A stretch of 63,049 bases of DNA, counting the filler, from Collodictyon triciliatum (taxonomy: Eukaryota), in NCBI GenBank assembly GCA_043381765.1. It is 15 parts of 15 records of this genome, joined end to end, with 100 filler letters (N's around TTAATTAATTAA, not from the genome) between each part and the next. Parts side by side here need not be neighbours in the genome. Positions count along the whole stretch, not along the records: positions 42,134 to 46,240 come from JBHJMP010006495.1; 14 more parts are not named here. One strand, 5' to 3'. Numbering within the stretch: the first letter of the stretch is position 1; each line of letters begins with the position of its first letter. This document shows positions 41,953 through 50,333 of this stretch, piece after piece. The translations under genes and the position numbers were made by a program. The notes below the pieces were generated by a model. The model saw only the letters and a program-made list of their open reading frames with translations. It had not been told where the DNA came from and searched no databases.

Positions 41953-43862
41953 ATACATCAATAAATCAATAAATCAATAAATCAATAAATCAATAAATCA
42001 ATAAATCAATAAATCAATAAATCAATAAATCAANNNNNNNNNNNNNNNNNNNNNNNNNNNNNNNNNNNNNNNNNNNNTTAATTAATTAANNNNNNNNNNN
42101 NNNNNNNNNNNNNNNNNNNNNNNNNNNNNNNNNCATTTATTAAAACTCAAAGAGAAGCGAATAAAACTGGGGTTTAAAAAAGAAAAATTAACACAAATCC
42201 TTTGGACATAGTTTGCGGATTTTGTTTTTTTTTTTTTCTTGTTTTTGTTTTCACCAATCCGGAAAAGAGACCGAAGAATACTACTTGTCCATATCATAAT
42301 TGGTATCATTACATTGAAACTTAAATTGGATATAGTCCCCGTCTTAATTGTACGGTATTTTTATGTGGAACACATATATATTTTTGCAATACACTTAAAC
42401 AGATAATGATGAATTTACAGACTATTTGAATGCTTAATTGTTTGGTCGTTGTACAGCGCGATAATATTCTAACCCCTACCCAGAAATTTTTGATCTATTA
42501 TTTTCCACACGATGCGAACAAACGGTGATCACACTGACAGAGAGACAAGGTTGAGAGGGGCAATAAGAAAAAACACAATTAATAAGAAAAAAAGTCCCCT
42601 TTGCTGAGAAACAAGCATGCTAGGAGAGAAAAAGGAGAATTGTGTGGAAAATAATATAATATTTCACTGGGGTTCTTTCCAACTTCTTCAAACCCGCCGC
42701 ATTCCGAAGCCCGAAAAAAACAAAAAGCAAGCGATCGGAATGAGGGATCCCGAGAAGGACGAGACCGCCTACCAGGAGACCGACGCCATGGAATGCCTAC
42801 TGATCGTACGCAAACCTGGAAGGCCAACGCAGCCAATGCAGAGAGCTAAAAGGTTACTTTACCACATCTCTTTACCACACAGGGCATGCACCGAGACGCA
42901 CCGACGATCAGGACGCCAGCTGGCTCTGACCCGTGAGTACAACAACCTATTAATGAGACAGGGCGAGCTCTTTGAAACAAATAATAAAAGGGGGAAAAAA
43001 AAAAAAGCCGATCGAGCTCTAGCCATCGATCCACGGGCAGCAAGGTAAGTATGAATGTATTGTTCAGCATTAGTTGCTCTGATTAATTCATCCGTTTCTT
43101 TTTTCTTCCTTTTTTCTTTCTCTTTTCTATTTCCTTTTCTTCGGTCTCATTCAGCCTGTAAATGGATAAACTTCATCACAAAGGTTGTGACGAACTTGGT
43201 TTTATCCCTTTCAATCCACAACACTTTTTACACATCAAAAGTGTACCCACGTGCATATAGCAGTTTATTGCACAGACAACCATCAAATTAAATCTGGATT
43301 GACGAAAGCATGAGCTTTGATGAATCCAAGAAAAAACCTGAATAATATAGTAGTATAATAAATATGTATAATAAGATTAAAAATACTTAATTATCTCAAT
43401 TCTATTCCTGTAATCAGCTTATATTTTATTTTCCATTATGCAATATTATATTCAGAAAGTTCAAAAATTACAAACAAGTCCTTGCCTTGGCCCAGACAGA
43501 ATCCACCCTATAAACCTGCCACCAAACATGCATTTCAAAAAAGCATACTATCCACACTTGCGGTGGTAACCATGTTGTTTAGGGCCGATATGTAGACTTT
43601 CAGTCACAATGGCTATACGACCGTCCTTTCGAACTCGCCGAATCGGCCCTCAGCGTTTTGTCTAAATCACTTATGAAAAAACTTTGTGTGTTTGTTTGCC
43701 ACAATGTGCACATTTTGAAAGTCTCAGTAAATGCTTAATTTTACATAAATTGATTTTGTACAGCTTTTTTTTTTAATTTAAATTGACTGATTGACTAAAA
43801 ATTTTATTAAAATTGAAAACTCGGTAGTTTTCTAAAGGAAATAGTAAAACAAAGACTTTCAG

Positions 43863-45740
43863 GTGAAGAAAATATACCGTCTTGAGTCTGAGAATTCAGA
43901 GTCTGTAAAACCAGACAATTGAAATTTGAAAACATATCTAATGTCGATTGTAAAGAATGCGGATGACTTTTACAAAACCAACGATATGGTTGTATTGTGT
44001 CATAATTTGGTTACCGACACTTATCTGTTTGCAAGATGTTACATATTGAAAACACAACAAGTCACAACAATCGATGAAAAAAAATTTTTGGACGCTTTGA
44101 AGACAATCGGAATAGTTTTGCAAGATAGACCCGCAAGATTAAACCATCCAGAAATGAGAGATGACATGATGACTTTTTATCTCGATGATTTTCGATTCCT
44201 TCTGTCCCGAGAAGATCGCTTTCCGTTGGTTGGACTTTCTCTTGCTCTGCCGTACTTGGCGAAGCAAATGTTTACAGCTTAACACAATAACACTAAGGAA
44301 CATTTTGTAAAGAGGTACTGCGCTTCATAAATCAAAATTTCCTAAAGATGAGAGGATATTGCGGAAGCTATTAAAAAGGCAGAGTTACGAAAGTTAAAAA
44401 AAGCCATCTCCAAGAAACTCGAAATACCAGACTTATATAGTGAATGGGCTAGAACGCATTTGCATCGTATCATTCCCAGCGATATTGTAAATGGTATCGA
44501 ATATGACGCCAAAGTCAACCCAAATAAGTACATCCCGTGTCTGATTTACATGAATCGCATTTTTGAGGACATTGGACACAAGCTGCTTCAACCAATTTCT
44601 ATAAGAACTTACAATATACCATGTCATATTTCTCTAGATACTGCATATTTGGTAGGTATATTAGTAGTATCATCTGGAAAAACATTATTACTGAAGAATA
44701 TATCAGAGTGCTAAGGTAGACTATGGGATAAGTTCTTTGAAATGAAGAAGAGGGTCTTTCATCAAAGAGACTACAATTTTAAATACATGATACAAACAGA
44801 CGGCTTGGCGGTGTCATTATTGTTTGAAAAGGTATTTCAAATTCAAAATTCAAAATGTAATATAAAAAACCCCAAAAATGTTTATATGGATGAAGTTTCC
44901 GAAGAGCAGTTATCTTTATTAGCGGCAAAAAAATAGTAGTTTGAGAGAATGTTGGCAAGTTTAATATGGTTTAGATGGTGGATGAGACAGGTAAGAAATT
45001 ATGTTACACGGCATACCGAAGAAGACATGATAGCAAATCTCTTAAAAATCACAAAGTAATCTTGCGCGAGAGATAAAAAGTACATTGCTTCAGGGATATG
45101 TATGGCAACAGGTTTACAAAGTGCTATTTCTTTTGGTCACAGGACTTTTGAAGAGAATCAGCAGCTTGAGACATCAAGAATATCTTTAATCGATTTAGAG
45201 ACAGAATTGAGTAAACATAATTCATGCACGGTCGATTATGAAAAATTTCGAGAATATGTATCTATGAAATCAAGATACCAGATAGAATTACCCAGATTTT
45301 ATGTACAAGGAACTTTTCGAAAGATGAGGTGTGACAGTATGTTAATAAAAAAAAAAGTGGAGAATTGTTTATGGACCGAATCGAAAAGACATTTGGCAAG
45401 GATGTTGTACTGGCCTATAGATACTGGAGCAGAAAATCTCCGATGAGACATTTTATGCCAACAATTGGAAGAGGATTACGAAAAATACTATCCAAACGTT
45501 TTGAAACAGTTATTGTGAATGAATTTAGAACCTTCAAGATGTACTGTATCTGCGAAAAAGAACTGGAATATATGACACTGAAAGGAAATACAAAATAGGT
45601 GTATAGAGTCTCATATGTAAAGAATGCAATCGCTCAGAAAGCAAAAAAAAAAGTGTATTCTTGACAAGGGACTTTAACAGCGCCAATAATATACTCAAGA
45701 AAGTTCGTTTAATCATTCAAAAAATGCACACACCTTCCTC
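43863..45740 (+). pseudogene. Fanzor1 (eukaryotic TnpB-derived RuvC RNA-guided endonuclease), near full length, with multiple stops and frameshifts and no introns
   Basis: Ordered motifs: KTYLMSI; YLAKQMFTA*HNNTKEHF; YDAKVNPNKY..YMN; IPCHISLDT; IQTDGLAVSLLF (~44790); decayed RuvC-I IVV*ENVGKFNMV; LSKHNSCTVDYEKF..FY..FRK; YWS..MPTIGRGLR..VNEFRT (RuvC-II, ~45520); Zn-finger remnants YCIC/CKEC; RDFNSANNI (RuvC-III, ~45667). Confidence 0.9.
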
Positions 45741-45749
45741 TAAAAAACA

Positions 45750-45875
45750 GGCTGTCGGGTCTCACCCTGGCAACCTTCACCACTACACAATCTTTGTGAA
45801 AAAAGTGGCGAGACCTTGGATACTAGCGCACCAGGTTTACCAAACTTTCGATGGTGTACCCCTTTTAGTACTGAA
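45750..45875 (+). ncRNA. Candidate Fanzor omega-RNA scaffold
   Basis: Lies just 3' of RuvC-III. Stems TTCACCACT/AGTGGCGAG enclosing CACAA/TTGTG, alternative GGTCTCACC/GGCGAGACC, and TACTA..GCACCA/TGGTGT..TAGTA. Identity is inferred from position. Confidence 0.45.
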
Positions 45876-46551
45876 TGAAATTTGCATGCCCTTTGTGAAT
45901 AAGAAGGATCAAGCCAAAGGGGAGACATTTTGGGGAGGCGCGACAACAAAACTTGTGTGTGGATACCCTGTTATAAGCGCAATGGCTGTGGAGGTTCCGG
46001 CTCGTTGGAGCAGCCCAAGCAGACTGCAGTGTGACAGTTTCTGTTTTGCGGAGAACTTTGCCGGTCCGATACCCCGTTGCTTTTTACATGTTTTATGGTA
46101 TTTTTTGGTTTTTATTTTATTTTGTTTTATTTTGTTTTGTTTTATTTTGTTTTATTTTATTTTGTTTTATTTTATTTTGTTTTATTTTATTTTGTTTTAT
46201 TTTATTTTGTTTTATTTTATTTTGTTTTATTTTATTTTGTNNNNNNNNNNNNNNNNNNNNNNNNNNNNNNNNNNNNNNNNNNNNTTAATTAATTAANNNN
46301 NNNNNNNNNNNNNNNNNNNNNNNNNNNNNNNNNNNNNNNNTTTTGTCTTTTTTTTTGTCTTTTTTCTTTGTCTTTTTTTTCTTTGTCTTTTTTTTCTTTG
46401 TCTTTTTTCTTCGCCATTGAATTTTGCACACGACAGATCCAGTGCCGAGAAATGGATATCAAATATGGCATTCAAAAAAATATAATTAACTAATATAATT
46501 GACCACCACAGATGGCTTGAAAATCAGTCAAAAAATCAAAGAAAATTAGAA

Positions 46552-47830
46552 ATGTTTGCTGACATCATTGGTGATTCTGCAAAAAAGCCTGGTAGTAATA
46601 ATAATTGCGAAAGTAATAGCAATACCGTCATCATGAATCCATTTAAATCACCTTATGAAAACTTTATCAAATTTACTGTTTTGATTGGTGATTGCAGATA
46701 CCAAGAAACCTGCTCCTAGGTTGACAAAGAAGAGCGTTCCATTGCTGGTAAGCATGCATTTCCATCTATTTGTAGTTGTTTGTTGTTGCATTTGATAATT
46801 ATAATGAAATGAAGTGGTAATCTTCAGTAAAGTCTATATGGTCCTTCTGTCAAACAAATTAGTTTCGGAAGATATTCGGATATTTTATCATCTTTTTTTT
46901 TTTATCGAGAACTCCTCCACCCTGGAAGAAATAAATGAAAACAATTTCGCAGAGAGCGAACGAACGAAGGGGGATATATACAAATGAAAGAGAAATAGAA
47001 AGGAAATATATTTAGTCACAACCTACAAATTTTCCAGATTGTTTGTTGTGATAAAAAGAAGAAAACTGTGTGCGTGGGCATGTAGTTCCTAACTGATAAA
47101 ATAACCATATATATCTAATGTCCTCGTTCTTTTTTCTTTACTTTTCCCTCCCCCGAATCAAGGGAGAAGGCATGAGGGACAGCGACAGTGAAAAGTCCGA
47201 GACTCCGATGGACGAAAACACCTTTGTAAGCACACCCGAATACCATAGCCACATACTGATAAGTGCATTGGAAAGACTTTGTGGGACAATACAAACTCGA
47301 CAATGTCTTGCGATTTCAGCAAAGGGAAAGAGCGATAACCAAGCATCCACGATTATTCATTTGACAGATGGCCCGCAACGAAATCGACGATGTCTTTCGG
47401 AAGAGGCCCGCTCAGGGAAGCACCGTACGCACGCACATCAAATCACATCAAATCACATCAAATCACATCAAATCACATCAAATCACATCAAATCACATGA
47501 GCCTCATAAATCAACACGCACCGACCCCAGAGGGAGACCAAGCCCCCACCCAAAACCCCTGCCGCCACCAGCACTGACGTCCCGGCGGCCGAGCCGACTG
47601 CAGAGGGCAAAAAGAAGAAAAAAGAGAAAGCGTCCAAGGCCCCGAAGCCAAACGCAGCCGACTCATCACTAGCGACCATCATGGATGCCATCGCCGGAGG
47701 CAAGAAGAAGAAATCTGCCGGGGCGTCCGACAACAAGCCCCACGTCGCAGCAGGCAGCGCAAAGAGGCCATCCTCGAGCATCGGAGAGGCGCCGAAAAAG
47801 AAGCCCCGCAAAGTCTTCTCGATGCTATAA
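46552..47830 (+). CDS. Hypothetical Lys-rich multi-exon protein (possibly 5' partial)
   Basis: Spliced exons ..KKPAPRLTKKSVPLL and MARNEIDDVFRKRP, and a last exon AEGKKKKKEK..APKKKPRKVFSML with a stop at 47830. Confidence 0.5.
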
Positions 47831-47928
47831 ACGCAGCCCCGCTCGCCGCAGCAGCGATGGCAAACACAGACATGAGGCTCAAGCGCAGCGGGACACAAGA
47901 GACTTTGCCCAGACTCGTGCGGGAGCGT

Positions 47929-48698
47929 TTAGAGGGAAAGGCCGAGGTTCTTTGCGGCAAACTCCCAGTTGACGAGAGACCACCAGGCGTTGAGGTAGTT
48001 GGCGCGGGCATTGCGGTAGTCGATGTAGTAGGCGTGTTCCCAGACATCAACGACAATCGCGGGGACGGCGCCGTCGCGCAGGGGGCACCCGGCATCGTGG
48101 CTCGAGACAACCTCCAGTTTGCCGGCGGCGTTGCGCACAAGCCAGGCCCAGCCCGAGCCGAAGTGTGTGGTGGCGGCGGCAGAGAACTTGTCCTTGAAGG
48201 CCTCGTAGCTGCCAAAGTCGGCGACAATTGCGTCCAGAAGAGCCCCGGTCGGCTGGGACGCAAGGAGAGAGGAGAGAGAAAGAGAGAAGGAGAGTTAGAG
48301 TCCTAACGCACAACAGGCTCAAGAAAGACAGTTTTGCAGGGTGCGGAATCGAACGCTGGAAGGCTTTGGCTTCAGAAAGGGCGAGGGAAAAGAAAAAAGC
48401 GAGTCGCGTGGGAGGAGATCGACGCACGCACCAGGCCGCCGCCGTTGGGCTTGAGCGAGTTCCAGTAGAAGGTGTGGTTCCAGATCTGGGCAGCGTTGTT
48501 GAAGACGGGACCCGGGGCCTGGGTGGCGATCAGCTCCTCAAGGGTCTTGCCCTCCAGATCGGAGCCGGCAACGAGCTTGTTGAGGTTGGTCACGTATGTC
48601 TGGTGGTGCTTGCCGTAGTGGAAGTCCAGAGTCTCGGCGGAGATGTGGGGCGCAAGGGCGTCCTTGGCGTAGGGCAGGGCGGGGAGTTCGTGGACCAT
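47929..48698 (-). CDS. sodB: Iron superoxide dismutase; exons 48698-48432 and 48252-47929
   Basis: [46 protein letters not shown] (Fe-type AAQ), FGSGWAWL and [11 protein letters not shown]. One GT-AG intron. Confidence 0.96.
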
Positions 48699-50333
48699 TG
48701 CGGGTGTCTGGTGGGGCGGCTTGTCGTGAGTGTTTGGAAGGGATCTCCCAGTTGCAAATAATTCAAATCTGTATGTAATATTCTGCCGTTCACTGGTTTC
48801 GTGGTGAGTAATTCGTTTCTTTCGTCCCTCTTCCTTTTCTTTTTCTTTTTTTTTTTTTTTGCTTTTTTTCCTGCTTTTTTCTTTTTTTTTTTTTTTTTTT
48901 TGGAATTCTTTTCCTTTGGTTCGTTGGTTGATGATTTACATCTGTTTTATCTATTCGTTTTTCATGCTATAAAGTGAGCAGTGCGAGTCGGTGTTAGTAT
49001 TGCACTTGTGAGCGGATTCGTTTCCTTGTGTCCCACGCGCTAGACAATCGGCACCTTCTTGGGGTTCTCGCGGAGGCGGTGTGCGGTTCGTGGGCAAGCA
49101 GGAGAGACGCACTTCTCATGATCCGATCGATCTGTTCCACGGCCAGACAAAGCTATATGAAAGGGCGTTGGGAATGTGATTTTATCCTCGTGCTAGTAAT
49201 GGATATGTTCTGCAATCAGTTGATTACGACCTAATATGTGAATATTAGCGCGGCTTAGCTACAATTAGGTGATATAGAACTAAATAGTGAATGTTAGCCC
49301 CGAGCGGCAGGCATGTCTCTATCTAATCCGAGCCTAGCGGCGACTGTGTGAAAGAAGCCACGTTCTAGAAGGCGGCTTCTCTACACACGATATATGGGAT
49401 ATTAATAAATTATAATTATTATATATGCAATGTGTTTTGGTGGTTTCAGAAGCAAAAATAGTATAAATATAATATATTAATATAAATTCCAAAAATATTC
49501 CAAGCTTCATTTAGGGCGCTGGACTATACTAGGCGGCCGCTTTGATAAACTTACACCAAGCCCCAGGAGCATACAAATCGAACCGATATGTTGCAAGAAG
49601 CTGAAAGTTAGAATAAAAATTGAATCTAGAGAGGACCACTAACCATCTTAGGTCCTATCTCATGTCATTATTTGTTATCCCAATCACAGCTGACATCTTA
49701 ATGGAGCGCTGAAACAAAAGTATTTGTTTCCTTTGATCTTTTCTTTTTCAAAGATAGCCCTCCTTGATGAGATTCCGAAAATCTAGGAAAGAAGAGAATG
49801 GACTAAAGAAAGGAAAAAAAGGGGGATAATTCAATTGAAATACGAAATCCTTTTTGATTGTGGGCGTATAGATAGATGACGTGGTGGGCTAGTAGAGAGA
49901 AAACAAGCAGCCGATTTCTAACCCCCATGAGTGTGTCCGATTTACCCTCTAGTGTCGCTTTGTGGATGGGTTTATAATGATTGCTCCCTGGATTATCGGC
50001 CAGATTGTGATGACCTTCCTCAACATCTGTCGTTTGCGTGCTGAGGTACCTCCGAGCCGCATCCTTTACTACATGAGAATATGGGTGTATATACCATCCC
50101 TCGAGACCTTGAGATTCCGAAGCAAGTCTGCCTGTCCGCAAACTGACCATTCGCACCAATGGCGGCTGAATCTCGAGCCGTCGGGTAGAGTTTGGTAACT
50201 AAATGAAAGTGTTATGTGTTCGACCCTGTAACACCCTCTATTTGAATTTGGAAAAAAAGATATAATATATATTTATAGATATATATAAAATAATATCCAT
50301 AACATAGTATTAAATAATATTAATTATTTTAAT

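What the first reader, a model, noticed from the sequence alone, without database searches (positions are those of the whole stretch)
43863..45740. Decayed, near full-length Fanzor1 RNA-guided nuclease in a protist contig
Seen in sequence: five short ORFs and the frames between them join into one ~600-codon intronless protein with TDG, RuvC-I/II/III and Zn-finger motifs in TnpB/Fanzor order. The RuvC-I DPG position reads ENVG, so this copy is inactive. Established knowledge: Fanzors are omega-RNA-guided eukaryotic relatives of TnpB/Cas12, carried by transposons and giant viruses. Inference: this lineage hosts or hosted a Fanzor family, and intact copies or a consensus could give a new programmable nuclease.
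Basis: partly seen in the sequence, partly recalled or inferred. Interest (0 to 1): 0.85.

Follow-up and report, generated by a model that had tools for sequence, protein, structure and literature searches.

The report
Dead Fanzor1 transposon nuclease gene copy
This stretch is a broken, non-functional copy of a Fanzor1 gene (a jumping-gene-borne RNA-guided DNA cutter of eukaryotes and giant viruses) from a family present in many decayed copies, so it is real but an ordinary molecular fossil.

Summary
Window 43863-45759 (+) is collinear with residues 1-633 of an intact 648-aa metagenomic protein, P0001 (tblastn E 5e-137; 364 of 639 aligned positions identical). A profile of that family matches solved Fanzor1 structures over its full length (SpuFz1 8GKH E 2e-73). 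The window's own pieces hit only Fanzor1 chains.

The copy is dead. GTG replaces the start codon. There are 6 frameshifts and 6-7 premature stops. The first catalytic Asp reads Asn, and a zinc-finger Cys and the GDWS glycine are lost.

It belongs to a repeat family. Two public runs hold 570 and 541 contig pieces at 80-100% likeness over about 42.4-45.86 kb. All 9 sister contigs covering the catalytic codon read Asp. Eight short sister protein fragments exist, and three of them show their own frame breaks.

No inverted ends, transposase, omega-RNA or intact sister copy could be shown. The host is a eukaryote, but "protist" is unverified. The wider family is very large (8230 cluster representatives) and its nearest named clusters are mostly from giant viruses.

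Verdict: a new member of a known kind, of low interest.

The parts
43863..45759 (+). Fanzor1 pseudogene body, collinear with residues 1-633 of the intact relative P0001, with no introns
   Evidence: tblastn; frameshift-aware alignment with 364 of 639 identical, 6 frame breaks and 6-7 stops; 65 of 76 invariant and 58 of 74 near-invariant family columns kept
43863..43865 (+). GTG where relatives have the ATG start codon
   Evidence: M1 to V
44796..44804 (+). TDG motif (MIQTDGLAVSLLF), intact
   Evidence: T312, D313 and G314 are invariant in the family
44939..44959 (+). RuvC-I motif remnant in frame 2: V, stop (TGA), E, N, V, G, K. The catalytic Asp codon reads AAT (Asn) at 44948-50
   Evidence: It maps to SpuFz1 D383 through the alignment and PMC10432273. 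All 4 (X1) and 5 (X3) sister contigs covering 44948 read G, giving Asp (table 3)
45416..45430 (+). YGDWS motif decayed to YRYWS (G521R, D522Y)
45521..45535 (+). EFRTS motif reading EFRTF. The catalytic Glu is kept (GAA 45521-23; it maps to SpuFz1 E541); S559 reads F
45542..45627 (+). TNB zinc finger. The first ligand Cys reads Tyr (45542-44) and C565, C587 and C590 are kept. It is interrupted by TAG 45596-98 and a 1-nt loss in a Cys codon at about 45608
   Evidence: Sister contigs carry an extra T behind 45607 (X1 164.3 of 191.4 depth, X3 165.1 of 185.9, table 4). P0196 reads KKVYRCLICKEC in one frame
45667..45672 (+). RuvC-III Arg-Asp (TRDFNSANN), intact; it maps to SpuFz1 D606
42722..43862 (.). 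Non-coding 5' arm that is repeated together with the gene in sister copies. Its left limit is uncertain (42400-42725)
   Evidence: depth in X1 and X3 is as high as over the gene. Records 4, 18 and 19 run from this arm into or up to the ORF start, and record 16 joins 42722-42978 to 43276-43557. There were no Pfam hits in six frames, no Tc1-type transposase and no Rfam match
45760..45860 (+). 3' tail of the repeat unit. This is the expected place of the last ~15 codons, the omega-RNA scaffold and the right end (inferred, not shown)
   Evidence: Repeat depth falls between bins 45725-45857 and 45858-45990 (table 2). The fold z-score is -1.42, not significant. The P0001 clade ends 13-15 codons after KKQAVG
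45861..46240 (.). Low-copy flank (45861-46100), then a (TTTTA/TTTTG)n microsatellite running to the contig end
   Evidence: Only one X1 contig (record 7, 45747-46096, 11 differences) covers it. Repeat families D1-D3

Best explanation
Window 43863-45759 is a dead copy of a Fanzor1 gene. Fanzor1 is the eukaryotic and giant-virus relative of TnpB, an omega-RNA-guided RuvC nuclease carried by mobile elements. The gene lies inside a repeat unit of at least about 3.1 kb (roughly 42.7-45.86 kb) that occurs in many diverged copies in this organism's relatives. By homology, the ancestral protein would have bound an omega-RNA transcribed from the element's 3' end. It would have recognised a transposon-adjacent motif (TAM) and cut DNA with a D/E/D RuvC triad (P0001 D364, E555, D604) split by a zinc-finger TNB domain. 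This copy cannot do that. It has no ATG, 6 frame breaks and 6-7 premature stops. The first catalytic Asp is Asn, one zinc ligand is lost and the GDWS glycine is lost. Most of these lesions are private to this copy. At least one frame break (about 45074) is shared with an independently sampled sister fragment, so copying continued after the gene was already broken, or the two copies arose by duplication of a dead copy. Shown here: homology, lesions, multi-copy status. Inferred: the omega-RNA, the TAM, the mode of mobility and the host lineage.
For: Collinearity with intact P0001: E 5e-137, and no other hit in the window. The frameshift-aware alignment gives 57% identity. The family profile (A1, 11 sequences) matched 5 PDB sequences at E up to 1. 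The top three are Fanzor1: SpuFz1 8GKH E 2e-73 over profile positions 2-605, Parasitella Fz1 E 1.3e-70 and Guillardia Fz1 E 1.1e-52. The window's own read-through pieces hit only Fanzor1 chains: GtFz1 E 1.3e-7 and SpuFz1 E 0.24, PpFz1 E 5.1e-6. The catalytic residues were mapped through the alignment (chain offset 394) onto SpuFz1 D383, E541 and D606, as named in PMC10432273 and PMC11423790. In the window they read Asn, Glu and Asp. Multi-copy status: 570 (X1), 541 (X3), 192 (X2) and 13 (X4) contig pieces were laid at 80-100% likeness, and X1 splits 55/133/182/200 across the bands 99+, 95-99, 90-95 and under 90. Sister contigs restore Tyr at 44282 (11 of 11 X1 contigs) and at 44974, Asp at 44948, and the missing bases at 45330 and 45607. 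Eight short sister protein fragments are 67-92% identical. P0039, P0040 and P0196 each show their own frame breaks, and P0039 shares the window's frame relation across about 45074.
Against: Pfam found nothing in the six separate pieces. No terminal inverted repeats were found. No transposase remnant was found. No omega-RNA was found: the fold z-score is -1.42, Rfam gave nothing and the covariance model of the viral right end had a best E of 0.3. Mobility is therefore inferred from copy number alone. The whole genome is not held, so copies in the same assembly could not be counted. The laid runs are contigs, which give no true copy number, and X1 and X3 carry other coded organism names than the only run with exact pieces (X4).
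Confidence: 0.93

Rival explanations
1. The gene is a relic of an integrated giant-virus genome (an endogenous viral element), not a copy of a host-resident mobile element.
For: The nearest ESM Atlas clusters to P0001 are 92-100% viral, commonest Nucleocytoviricota, and carry PF26935 DUF8286. Five relatives lie on 18-175 kb IMG/VR contigs, including a GVMAG.
Against: Hundreds of diverged pieces, including the non-coding 5' arm, were laid in the runs. The 4.1-kb contig has no other viral gene and no long ORF. The window's clade (P0001, P0002, P0006) was not found in viral contigs with clade-specific patterns, which returned only the 36%-identical loci. The giant-virus mariner-type end motif is absent.
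Confidence: 0.05
2. The gene is intact, and the apparent breaks come from a non-standard genetic code or from assembly errors.
For: Five of the seven stops are TAA or TAG. The break at about 44934 lies in a run of seven A.
Against: All three stop codons occur. They stand opposite R, Y, R/E, G, Y and K of P0001, so no single reassignment fits. The breaks at about 45330 and 45608 are not in homopolymers. Invariant residues D364, P365, G521, S559 and C562 are substituted. Two 151-nt X4 contigs match 44592-44742 and 44785-44935 with 0 differences, including TAA 44712, although X4 may be the source sample.
Confidence: 0.01
3. The 5' arm (42.4-43.86 kb) is not part of the Fanzor element. It is one or more unrelated repeats that happen to lie upstream, so the element is only about 2 kb, like Spu-1.
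For: Depth varies several-fold between upstream bins (X1: 112 to 663). Many joints and loose ends fall in 42722-43480 (tables 2, 5, 7), as in a mosaic of repeats.
Against: Sister contigs run continuously from 43480-43616 into or up to the ORF start (X1 records 2 and 4, X3 records 18 and 19). One contig links 42722-42978 to 43276-43557 (table 8).
Confidence: 0.3

Closest known systems
SpuFz1 / Spu-1 elements of Spizellomyces punctatus (PDB 8GKH; Saito et al. 2023, PMC10432273: passages and section 7 read)
   Same: Full-length collinear homology of the family profile (E 2e-73). Same D/E/D triad positions and TNB zinc finger. Single intronless ORF. Multi-copy family with full and partial copies.
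   Different: Spu-1 is about 2.1 kb with 30-nt inverted repeats and a 75-nt omega-RNA scaffold after the stop codon. Here no inverted repeats or omega-RNA could be shown, and the repeat unit seems to carry an extra 5' arm of at least 1.1 kb. The sequences are distant: the window's N-terminal read-through piece hits SpuFz1 only at E 0.24. This copy is dead.
CMe-1A of Cyanidioschyzon merolae (Bao and Jurka 2013, PMC3627910: abstract and sections 6, 7, 12 read)
   Same: A Fanzor1-only element of about 3 kb with no TIRs and no transposase, in many copies about 80% identical to their consensus, with ends hard to define.
   Different: It is a different organism and sequence. The window is about 36% GC here, and a look-up of earlier findings by sequence found no look-alike. 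The likeness is one of architecture only.
Mariner/Tc1-type Fanzor1 elements of giant viruses and protists (PGv-1, PUl-1; PMC3627910 section 7)
   Same: Same Fanzor1 protein family. The viral relatives fetched here (L001, L003, L006 and 15 more) end 46-142 nt after the ORF in a conserved right-end motif that also occurs as inverted pairs 0.1-5.2 kb apart. L004 has a Tc1-like transposase next to it.
   Different: The window has no such motif. The best match is 15 or 16 of 25 bases, as in shuffles, and the covariance model's best E is 0.3. There is no Tc1-like transposase remnant. The proteins are only about 36% identical to the window's clade.
P0001 / P0012 (648 aa) and the fragments P0194, P0195: unnamed intact metagenomic relatives
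   Same: The closest intact proteins: 57% identical over the whole length, all catalytic and zinc-finger residues present.
   Different: A different subfamily. The true sister copies are 67-92% identical but are known only as fragments. Origin unknown, and their DNA could not be fetched.

Membership tests
Fanzor1 (by descent) | Full-length collinear similarity to experimentally characterised Fanzor1 proteins | tested here: met
   The profile of relatives matches SpuFz1 at E 2e-73, PpFz1 at 1.3e-70 and GtFz1 at 1.1e-52. The window's pieces hit only Fanzor1 chains.
Fanzor1 (by descent) | Motif order D ... [TS][TS]-x-x-C4 zinc finger ... RD (Bao and Jurka 2013) | tested here: met
   Order and spacing are preserved. 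All these positions are invariant in relatives. In this copy three of them are mutated; see the next row.
Fanzor1 (functional nuclease) | Open reading frame with an intact RuvC triad and C4 zinc finger | tested here: not met
   No ATG, 6 frame breaks, 6-7 stops, D364N, S559F, C562Y and G521R. It is therefore filed as a Fanzor1-derived pseudogene, not a working member.
Fanzor1 (functional nuclease) | Fanzor1-specific conserved Gly and Glu (G500 and E536 in Bao and Jurka's numbering) | tested here: inconclusive
   I equate them with the invariant G521 and E555 of the family (an inference from the motifs GDWS and NEFRTS). The window keeps the Glu and has Arg for the Gly.
Fanzor1 system | Omega-RNA encoded at the 3' end of the ORF and the right end of the element | tested here: inconclusive
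   Fold of 45700-45880: z -1.42. No Rfam family. Model of the viral right end: best E 0.3. No sister DNA was available for covariation, and no RNA holder was listed.
Fanzor1 system | Residence in a mobile element (multi-copy; ends, TIR or TSD) | tested here: inconclusive
   Multi-copy status is met. Ends, TIRs and TSDs were not found.
Fanzor1 system | RNA-guided DNA cleavage | not testable with these tools
   Needs biochemistry on an intact relative.
TnpB (IS200/IS605) / Cas12f | Match to TnpB or Cas12f profiles at family thresholds | tested here: not met
   In NCBIfam, guided_TnpB matched only P0010 of 4 relatives, at 19.1 bits against a cut-off of 100. In Pfam, Cas12f1-like_TNB was weak in 6 of 6 relatives and reached the cut-off only in P0010. 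In PDB, the only non-Fanzor nuclease-like row had E 0.69.
Giant-virus mariner-type Fanzor1 element (PGv-1-like) | Conserved terminal inverted repeat and Tc1/mariner transposase | tested here: not met

The most novel reading that the evidence does not exclude
The window's family may be a cellular offshoot of the otherwise giant-virus-dominated DUF8286 Fanzor1 clade. On this reading it rides a transposase-less, TIR-less element of at least 3.1 kb with a conserved non-coding 5' arm of at least 1.1 kb. It reached dozens or more copies and kept being copied after the nuclease ORF broke. Some sister copies, which read Asp at the RuvC-I site, might still encode an active nuclease with its own omega-RNA and TAM.
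Probability: 0.2. Interest if true: 0.45.

Novelty: new member of a known kind. Interest (0 to 1): 0.22.

Why it matters
As it stands it matters little. Fanzor1 genes and their decayed copies are known from fungi, protists, algae, arthropods and giant viruses (PMC3627910, PMC10432273). The profile of this subfamily alone finds 8230 cluster representatives. Modest value lies in two points. First, it marks an unnamed eukaryote lineage, seen mainly in freshwater metagenome runs, with a large and mostly decayed Fanzor1 repeat family whose closest named relatives are viral. This is one more data point for virus-host exchange of these elements. Second, the element seems to lack both a transposase and inverted ends, which touches the open question of how Fanzor-only elements spread. 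As a tool source the intact relative P0001 is a more realistic starting point than this fossil, but nothing suggests it would be better than existing Fanzors.

Tried and rejected
- Pfam on the six separate ORF pieces found 0 families at E up to 10. The pieces are too short and diverged, and PF26935 is not in the local Pfam copy.
- The whole genome is not held, so the proposed assembly-wide tBLASTn for sister copies could not be done.
- Inverted and direct repeats within the contig, and blastn of the 3' flank against the 5' flank, found only T-rich low-complexity matches and a 22-nt, 82% pair (42869/45883), which I judge to be chance.
- The Tc1/mariner transposase from viral locus L004, run against the window, gave a best E of 1.3.
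- Six-frame read-through of 42134-43862 against Pfam gave 0 families.
- Rfam at gathering level over the whole window gave 0 matches. At E-value level on the contig it gave only SNORD52 at E 0.45. There were no tRNAs.
- The fold of 45700-45880 had z -1.42, not significant.
- The viral right-end motif matched 15 of 25 bases at 45834-45858, just where repeat depth falls. Shuffled contigs reach 15-16 as a rule, so I rejected it. The covariance model R1 of that end had a best E of 0.3 in a T-run.
- Fetching DNA of the closest clade failed. The metagenome scan gave one locus at 21% identity. The viral scan with clade patterns gave only the known 36% loci. The genome-contig scan gave none.
- No RNA holder was listed for the stretch. 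Parts without cover in the laid runs are not evidence.
- Host lineage: the Atlas search on a TMEM185-like ORF of another contig gave Eukaryota with mixed phyla. The 772-aa ORF at 35339-37657 has no Pfam or PDB match.
- Earlier findings of this scan: none for this genome or for look-alike sequence.
- RIP-like decay was considered and rejected. The stops arise from R, Y, G and K codons, mostly by transversions.

Full report
**What the window is.** The 63,049-base window is not one contig. It holds 30 runs of N, and 28 of them form 14 evenly spaced pairs of 44 N around the linker TTAATTAATTAA. It is therefore a chain of about 15 short contigs of roughly 4.1 kb each. The finding lies in the contig 42134-46240. 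No whole genome is held for it.

**Checking the observation.** A read-through of frame 0, with X at stops, found ten relatives of 258-823 aa. The best is P0001, 648 aa, at E 3e-134. tblastn of P0001 against the whole window gives three HSPs, all at this locus and collinear: frame 0 at 43863-45362 (E 5e-137), frame 2 at 44918-45658 (E 9e-43) and frame 1 at 45610-45759 (E 2e-12).

My own frameshift-aware dynamic-programming alignment aligns all 648 residues of P0001 without any intron-sized gap. Similarity is recognisable over residues 1-633 (window 43863-45759); the last ~15 residues align without similarity out to 45796. 364 of 639 aligned positions are identical (57%).
- Frame breaks: six, at about 44316, 44351, 44934, 45074, 45333 and 45608.
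- In-frame stops: six, at 43920 TGA, 44280 TAA, 44712 TAA, 44942 TGA, 44972 TAG and 45596 TAG, plus TGA 45332 at a break.
- Start codon: GTG stands where P0001 has its ATG.

**What family it is.** Pfam found nothing in the six separate pieces. In six intact relatives it found only weak Cas12f1-like_TNB matches, and only P0010 reached the cut-off. The decisive test was a profile of 11 relatives (A1) searched against PDB sequences. It matched five sequences at E up to 1.
- Spizellomyces punctatus Fanzor1: 8GKH, E 2e-73, profile positions 2-605.
- Parasitella parasitica Fanzor1: E 1.3e-70.
- Guillardia theta Fanzor1: E 1.1e-52.
- The other two were noise, at E 0.04 and 0.69.

The window's own read-through pieces hit only Fanzor1 chains: GtFz1 at E 1.3e-7 and SpuFz1 at E 0.24 for the N-terminal 489 residues, and PpFz1 at E 5.1e-6 for the 87-residue RuvC-II/TNB piece. 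NCBIfam TnpB and Cas12f models are far below threshold. This is Fanzor1, not TnpB, Cas12f or Fanzor2.

**Catalytic residues.** Saito et al. (PMC10432273, passages read) and the Cell 2024 structural paper (PMC11423790, passages read) name D383, E541 and D606 as the SpuFz1 triad. The PDB chain is offset from SpuFz1 numbering by 394 residues. With that offset, the alignment places these on the invariant family columns D364, E555 and D604 of P0001.
- The window has Asn (AAT 44948-50), Glu (45521-23) and Asp (45670-72).
- Overall it keeps 65 of 76 invariant and 58 of 74 near-invariant columns.
- Among the losses are P365V, G521R and D522Y (GDWS now reads RYWS), S559F and the first zinc ligand C562Y.

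One nuance: an Asn at the third triad position is tolerated in Fanzor1 (GtFz1; SpuFz1 D606N). The window's Asn is at the first position, for which I saw no such data. In any case the frame breaks and stops kill the gene.

**Not a code or assembly artefact.** All three stop codons occur. They stand opposite R, Y, R/E, G, Y and K of P0001, so no single reassignment explains them. Two frame breaks (about 45330 and 45608) are single-base losses inside TGG and Cys codons, not in homopolymers. Two 151-nt contigs of run X4 match 44592-44742 and 44785-44935 without a difference, including TAA 44712, though X4 may be the source sample.

**Sister copies.** A search of public runs listed 19 holders with small word shares, mostly freshwater metagenomes from 14 studies. 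Four runs were laid on 42134-46100 at 80% likeness or more. This gave 570 (X1), 541 (X3), 192 (X2) and 13 (X4) contig pieces. X1 splits into 55, 133, 182 and 200 pieces in the bands 99+, 95-99, 90-95 and under 90%. These are contigs, so they give no copy number. From piece lengths of 150-630 nt I estimate tens of element-equivalents.

The sister contigs show that most of the window's lesions are private:
- 44282 A>T (TAA to Tyr): all 11 X1 contigs.
- 44974 G>C (TAG to Tyr): 215.8 of 221.2 depth in X1.
- 44948 A>G (Asn to Asp): all 4 X1 and 5 X3 contigs.
- An extra G behind 45330.
- An extra T behind 45607: 164.3 of 191.4 depth in X1.

A contig insert printed in table 5c reads, in my translation, G-V-D-A-G-K at RuvC-I.

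The protein database holds eight short sister fragments at 67-92% identity from contigs of 569-740 nt. P0037, P0038 and P0040 read straight through the window's TAA 44280 and its paired frame breaks at 44316 and 44351. P0039, P0040 and P0196 begin or continue in off-frames, so they are broken too. P0039 keeps Asp at RuvC-I. It then runs in the same off-frame as the window's frame 0 and joins the downstream part in the same way. The two copies therefore share the frame break at about 45074, and that lesion predates their split. No sister ORF of 258 aa or more above 57% identity was found, so no intact copy of this particular family is known from these data.

**The element.** Depth in X1 and X3 is as high upstream of the ORF (42666-43862) as over it. 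It falls between the bins 45725-45857 and 45858-45990. Only one X1 contig, with 11 differences, covers the flank 45747-46096. Sister contigs run from 43480-43616 into or up to the ORF start, and one links 42722-42978 with 43276-43557.

The repeat unit therefore seems to span about 42.7 to 45.8-45.86 kb, with a non-coding 5' arm of at least 1.1 kb. A mosaic of separate repeats remains possible (I put this at 0.3). In that arm I found no Pfam domain in six frames, no Tc1-type transposase and no RNA family. No inverted repeat matches the 3' end.

[quoted passage not shown] This could not be shown: the fold z-score is -1.42.

**Relatives in giant viruses.** Five relatives (29-36% identity in the best segment) lie on IMG/VR contigs of 18-175 kb. 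The nearest Atlas clusters are 92-100% viral, commonest Nucleocytoviricota, and carry PF26935 DUF8286. Three such loci share a conserved right-end motif. That motif occurs in at least 120 stretches of viral contigs, often as inverted pairs 0.1-5.2 kb apart. In 18 of 148 motif occurrences a Fanzor C-terminus ends 46-142 nt upstream. This is the known mariner-type Fanzor1 element (PMC3627910 section 7).

The window lacks it. The best motif match is 15-16 of 25 bases, as in shuffles, and a covariance model of that end scores a best E of 0.3. Clade-specific scans did not find the window's clade in viral or prokaryotic genome collections. The window's family is therefore probably a cellular lineage on a different carrier. 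In architecture it is most like CMe-1A of Cyanidioschyzon (about 3 kb, no TIRs, about 150 copies at about 80% identity; PMC3627910 section 12), without being related to it in sequence.

**Host.** Other contigs of the window carry a TMEM185-like exon and an LRR ORF. The Atlas places the former among eukaryotes of mixed phyla. 'Protist' is neither supported nor refuted. The only run with exact pieces is labelled a fungus metagenome and the others freshwater, which I note without drawing a conclusion.

**How it works.** By homology, the ancestor was an omega-RNA-guided RuvC nuclease whose guide is read from the DNA just outside the element's right end. In bacteria, TnpB helps its transposon persist by cutting empty sites; this is recalled, not read here. 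This copy is inert DNA.

**Novelty and score.** The profile finds 8230 cluster representatives at E up to 0.001, and 1611 at E up to 1e-30. Decayed Fanzor1 copies are described in print (PMC3627910, PMC10432273). This is a new member of a known kind, with interest about 0.2. I ran no literature search for this particular lineage, because its organism is unknown, and I make no claim that it is unpublished.

Noticed in passing
window 1-63049: The window is a chain of about 15 contigs of roughly 4.1 kb each, joined by 44 N + TTAATTAATTAA + 44 N linkers. Contig lengths fall slowly along it, as if sorted by size. Two further N runs (34697-34733, 52155-52780) look like scaffold gaps.
   Followed up: partly
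window 27770-28528 (+): A 252-aa open frame matches Pfam Tmemb_185A (E 3.6e-10). The nearest Atlas clusters are eukaryotic with mixed phyla. This was the only lineage hint for the assembly.
   Followed up: partly
window 35339-37657 (-): The longest open frame of the window (772 aa, many hydrophobic stretches) has no Pfam family at E up to 0.01 and no PDB sequence match.
   Followed up: partly
window 55186-56580 and 47100-48935: Long overlapping open frames run on both strands in G+C-rich stretches. One has a weak Mucin-like match (E 0.0011). They look like low-complexity repeats rather than genes.
   Followed up: no
window 46101-46240: A (TTTTA/TTTTG)n microsatellite runs to the contig end just downstream of the element. 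It may be the reason the assembly broke here.
   Followed up: no
L001 6881-6905, L003 7017-7041, L006 4189-4213 and at least 120 further viral stretches (L007-L126): A 25-nt right-end motif is conserved among giant-virus Fanzor1 elements whose proteins are only distantly related. It often occurs as inverted pairs 0.1-5.2 kb apart, so it is the inverted end of mariner-type Fanzor1 elements. Only 18 of 148 occurrences have a Fanzor C-terminus just upstream, so many may be Fanzor-less (ghost or left-end) copies.
   Followed up: partly
window 44960-45076 compared with protein P0039: The window and the sister fragment P0039 share the frame break at about 45074. Each also has a different second break upstream (at about 44934 in the window; after G-K-F in P0039) that brings the downstream part back into frame. 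Whether that is chance or a trace of selection for an open frame was not examined.
   Followed up: partly
window 45742-45759: The peptide KKQAVG near the C-terminus is kept in the window and in the 57%-identical P0001 clade, although the residues on both sides differ. This could reflect a constraint at the RNA level (omega-RNA overlap). Untested.
   Followed up: no
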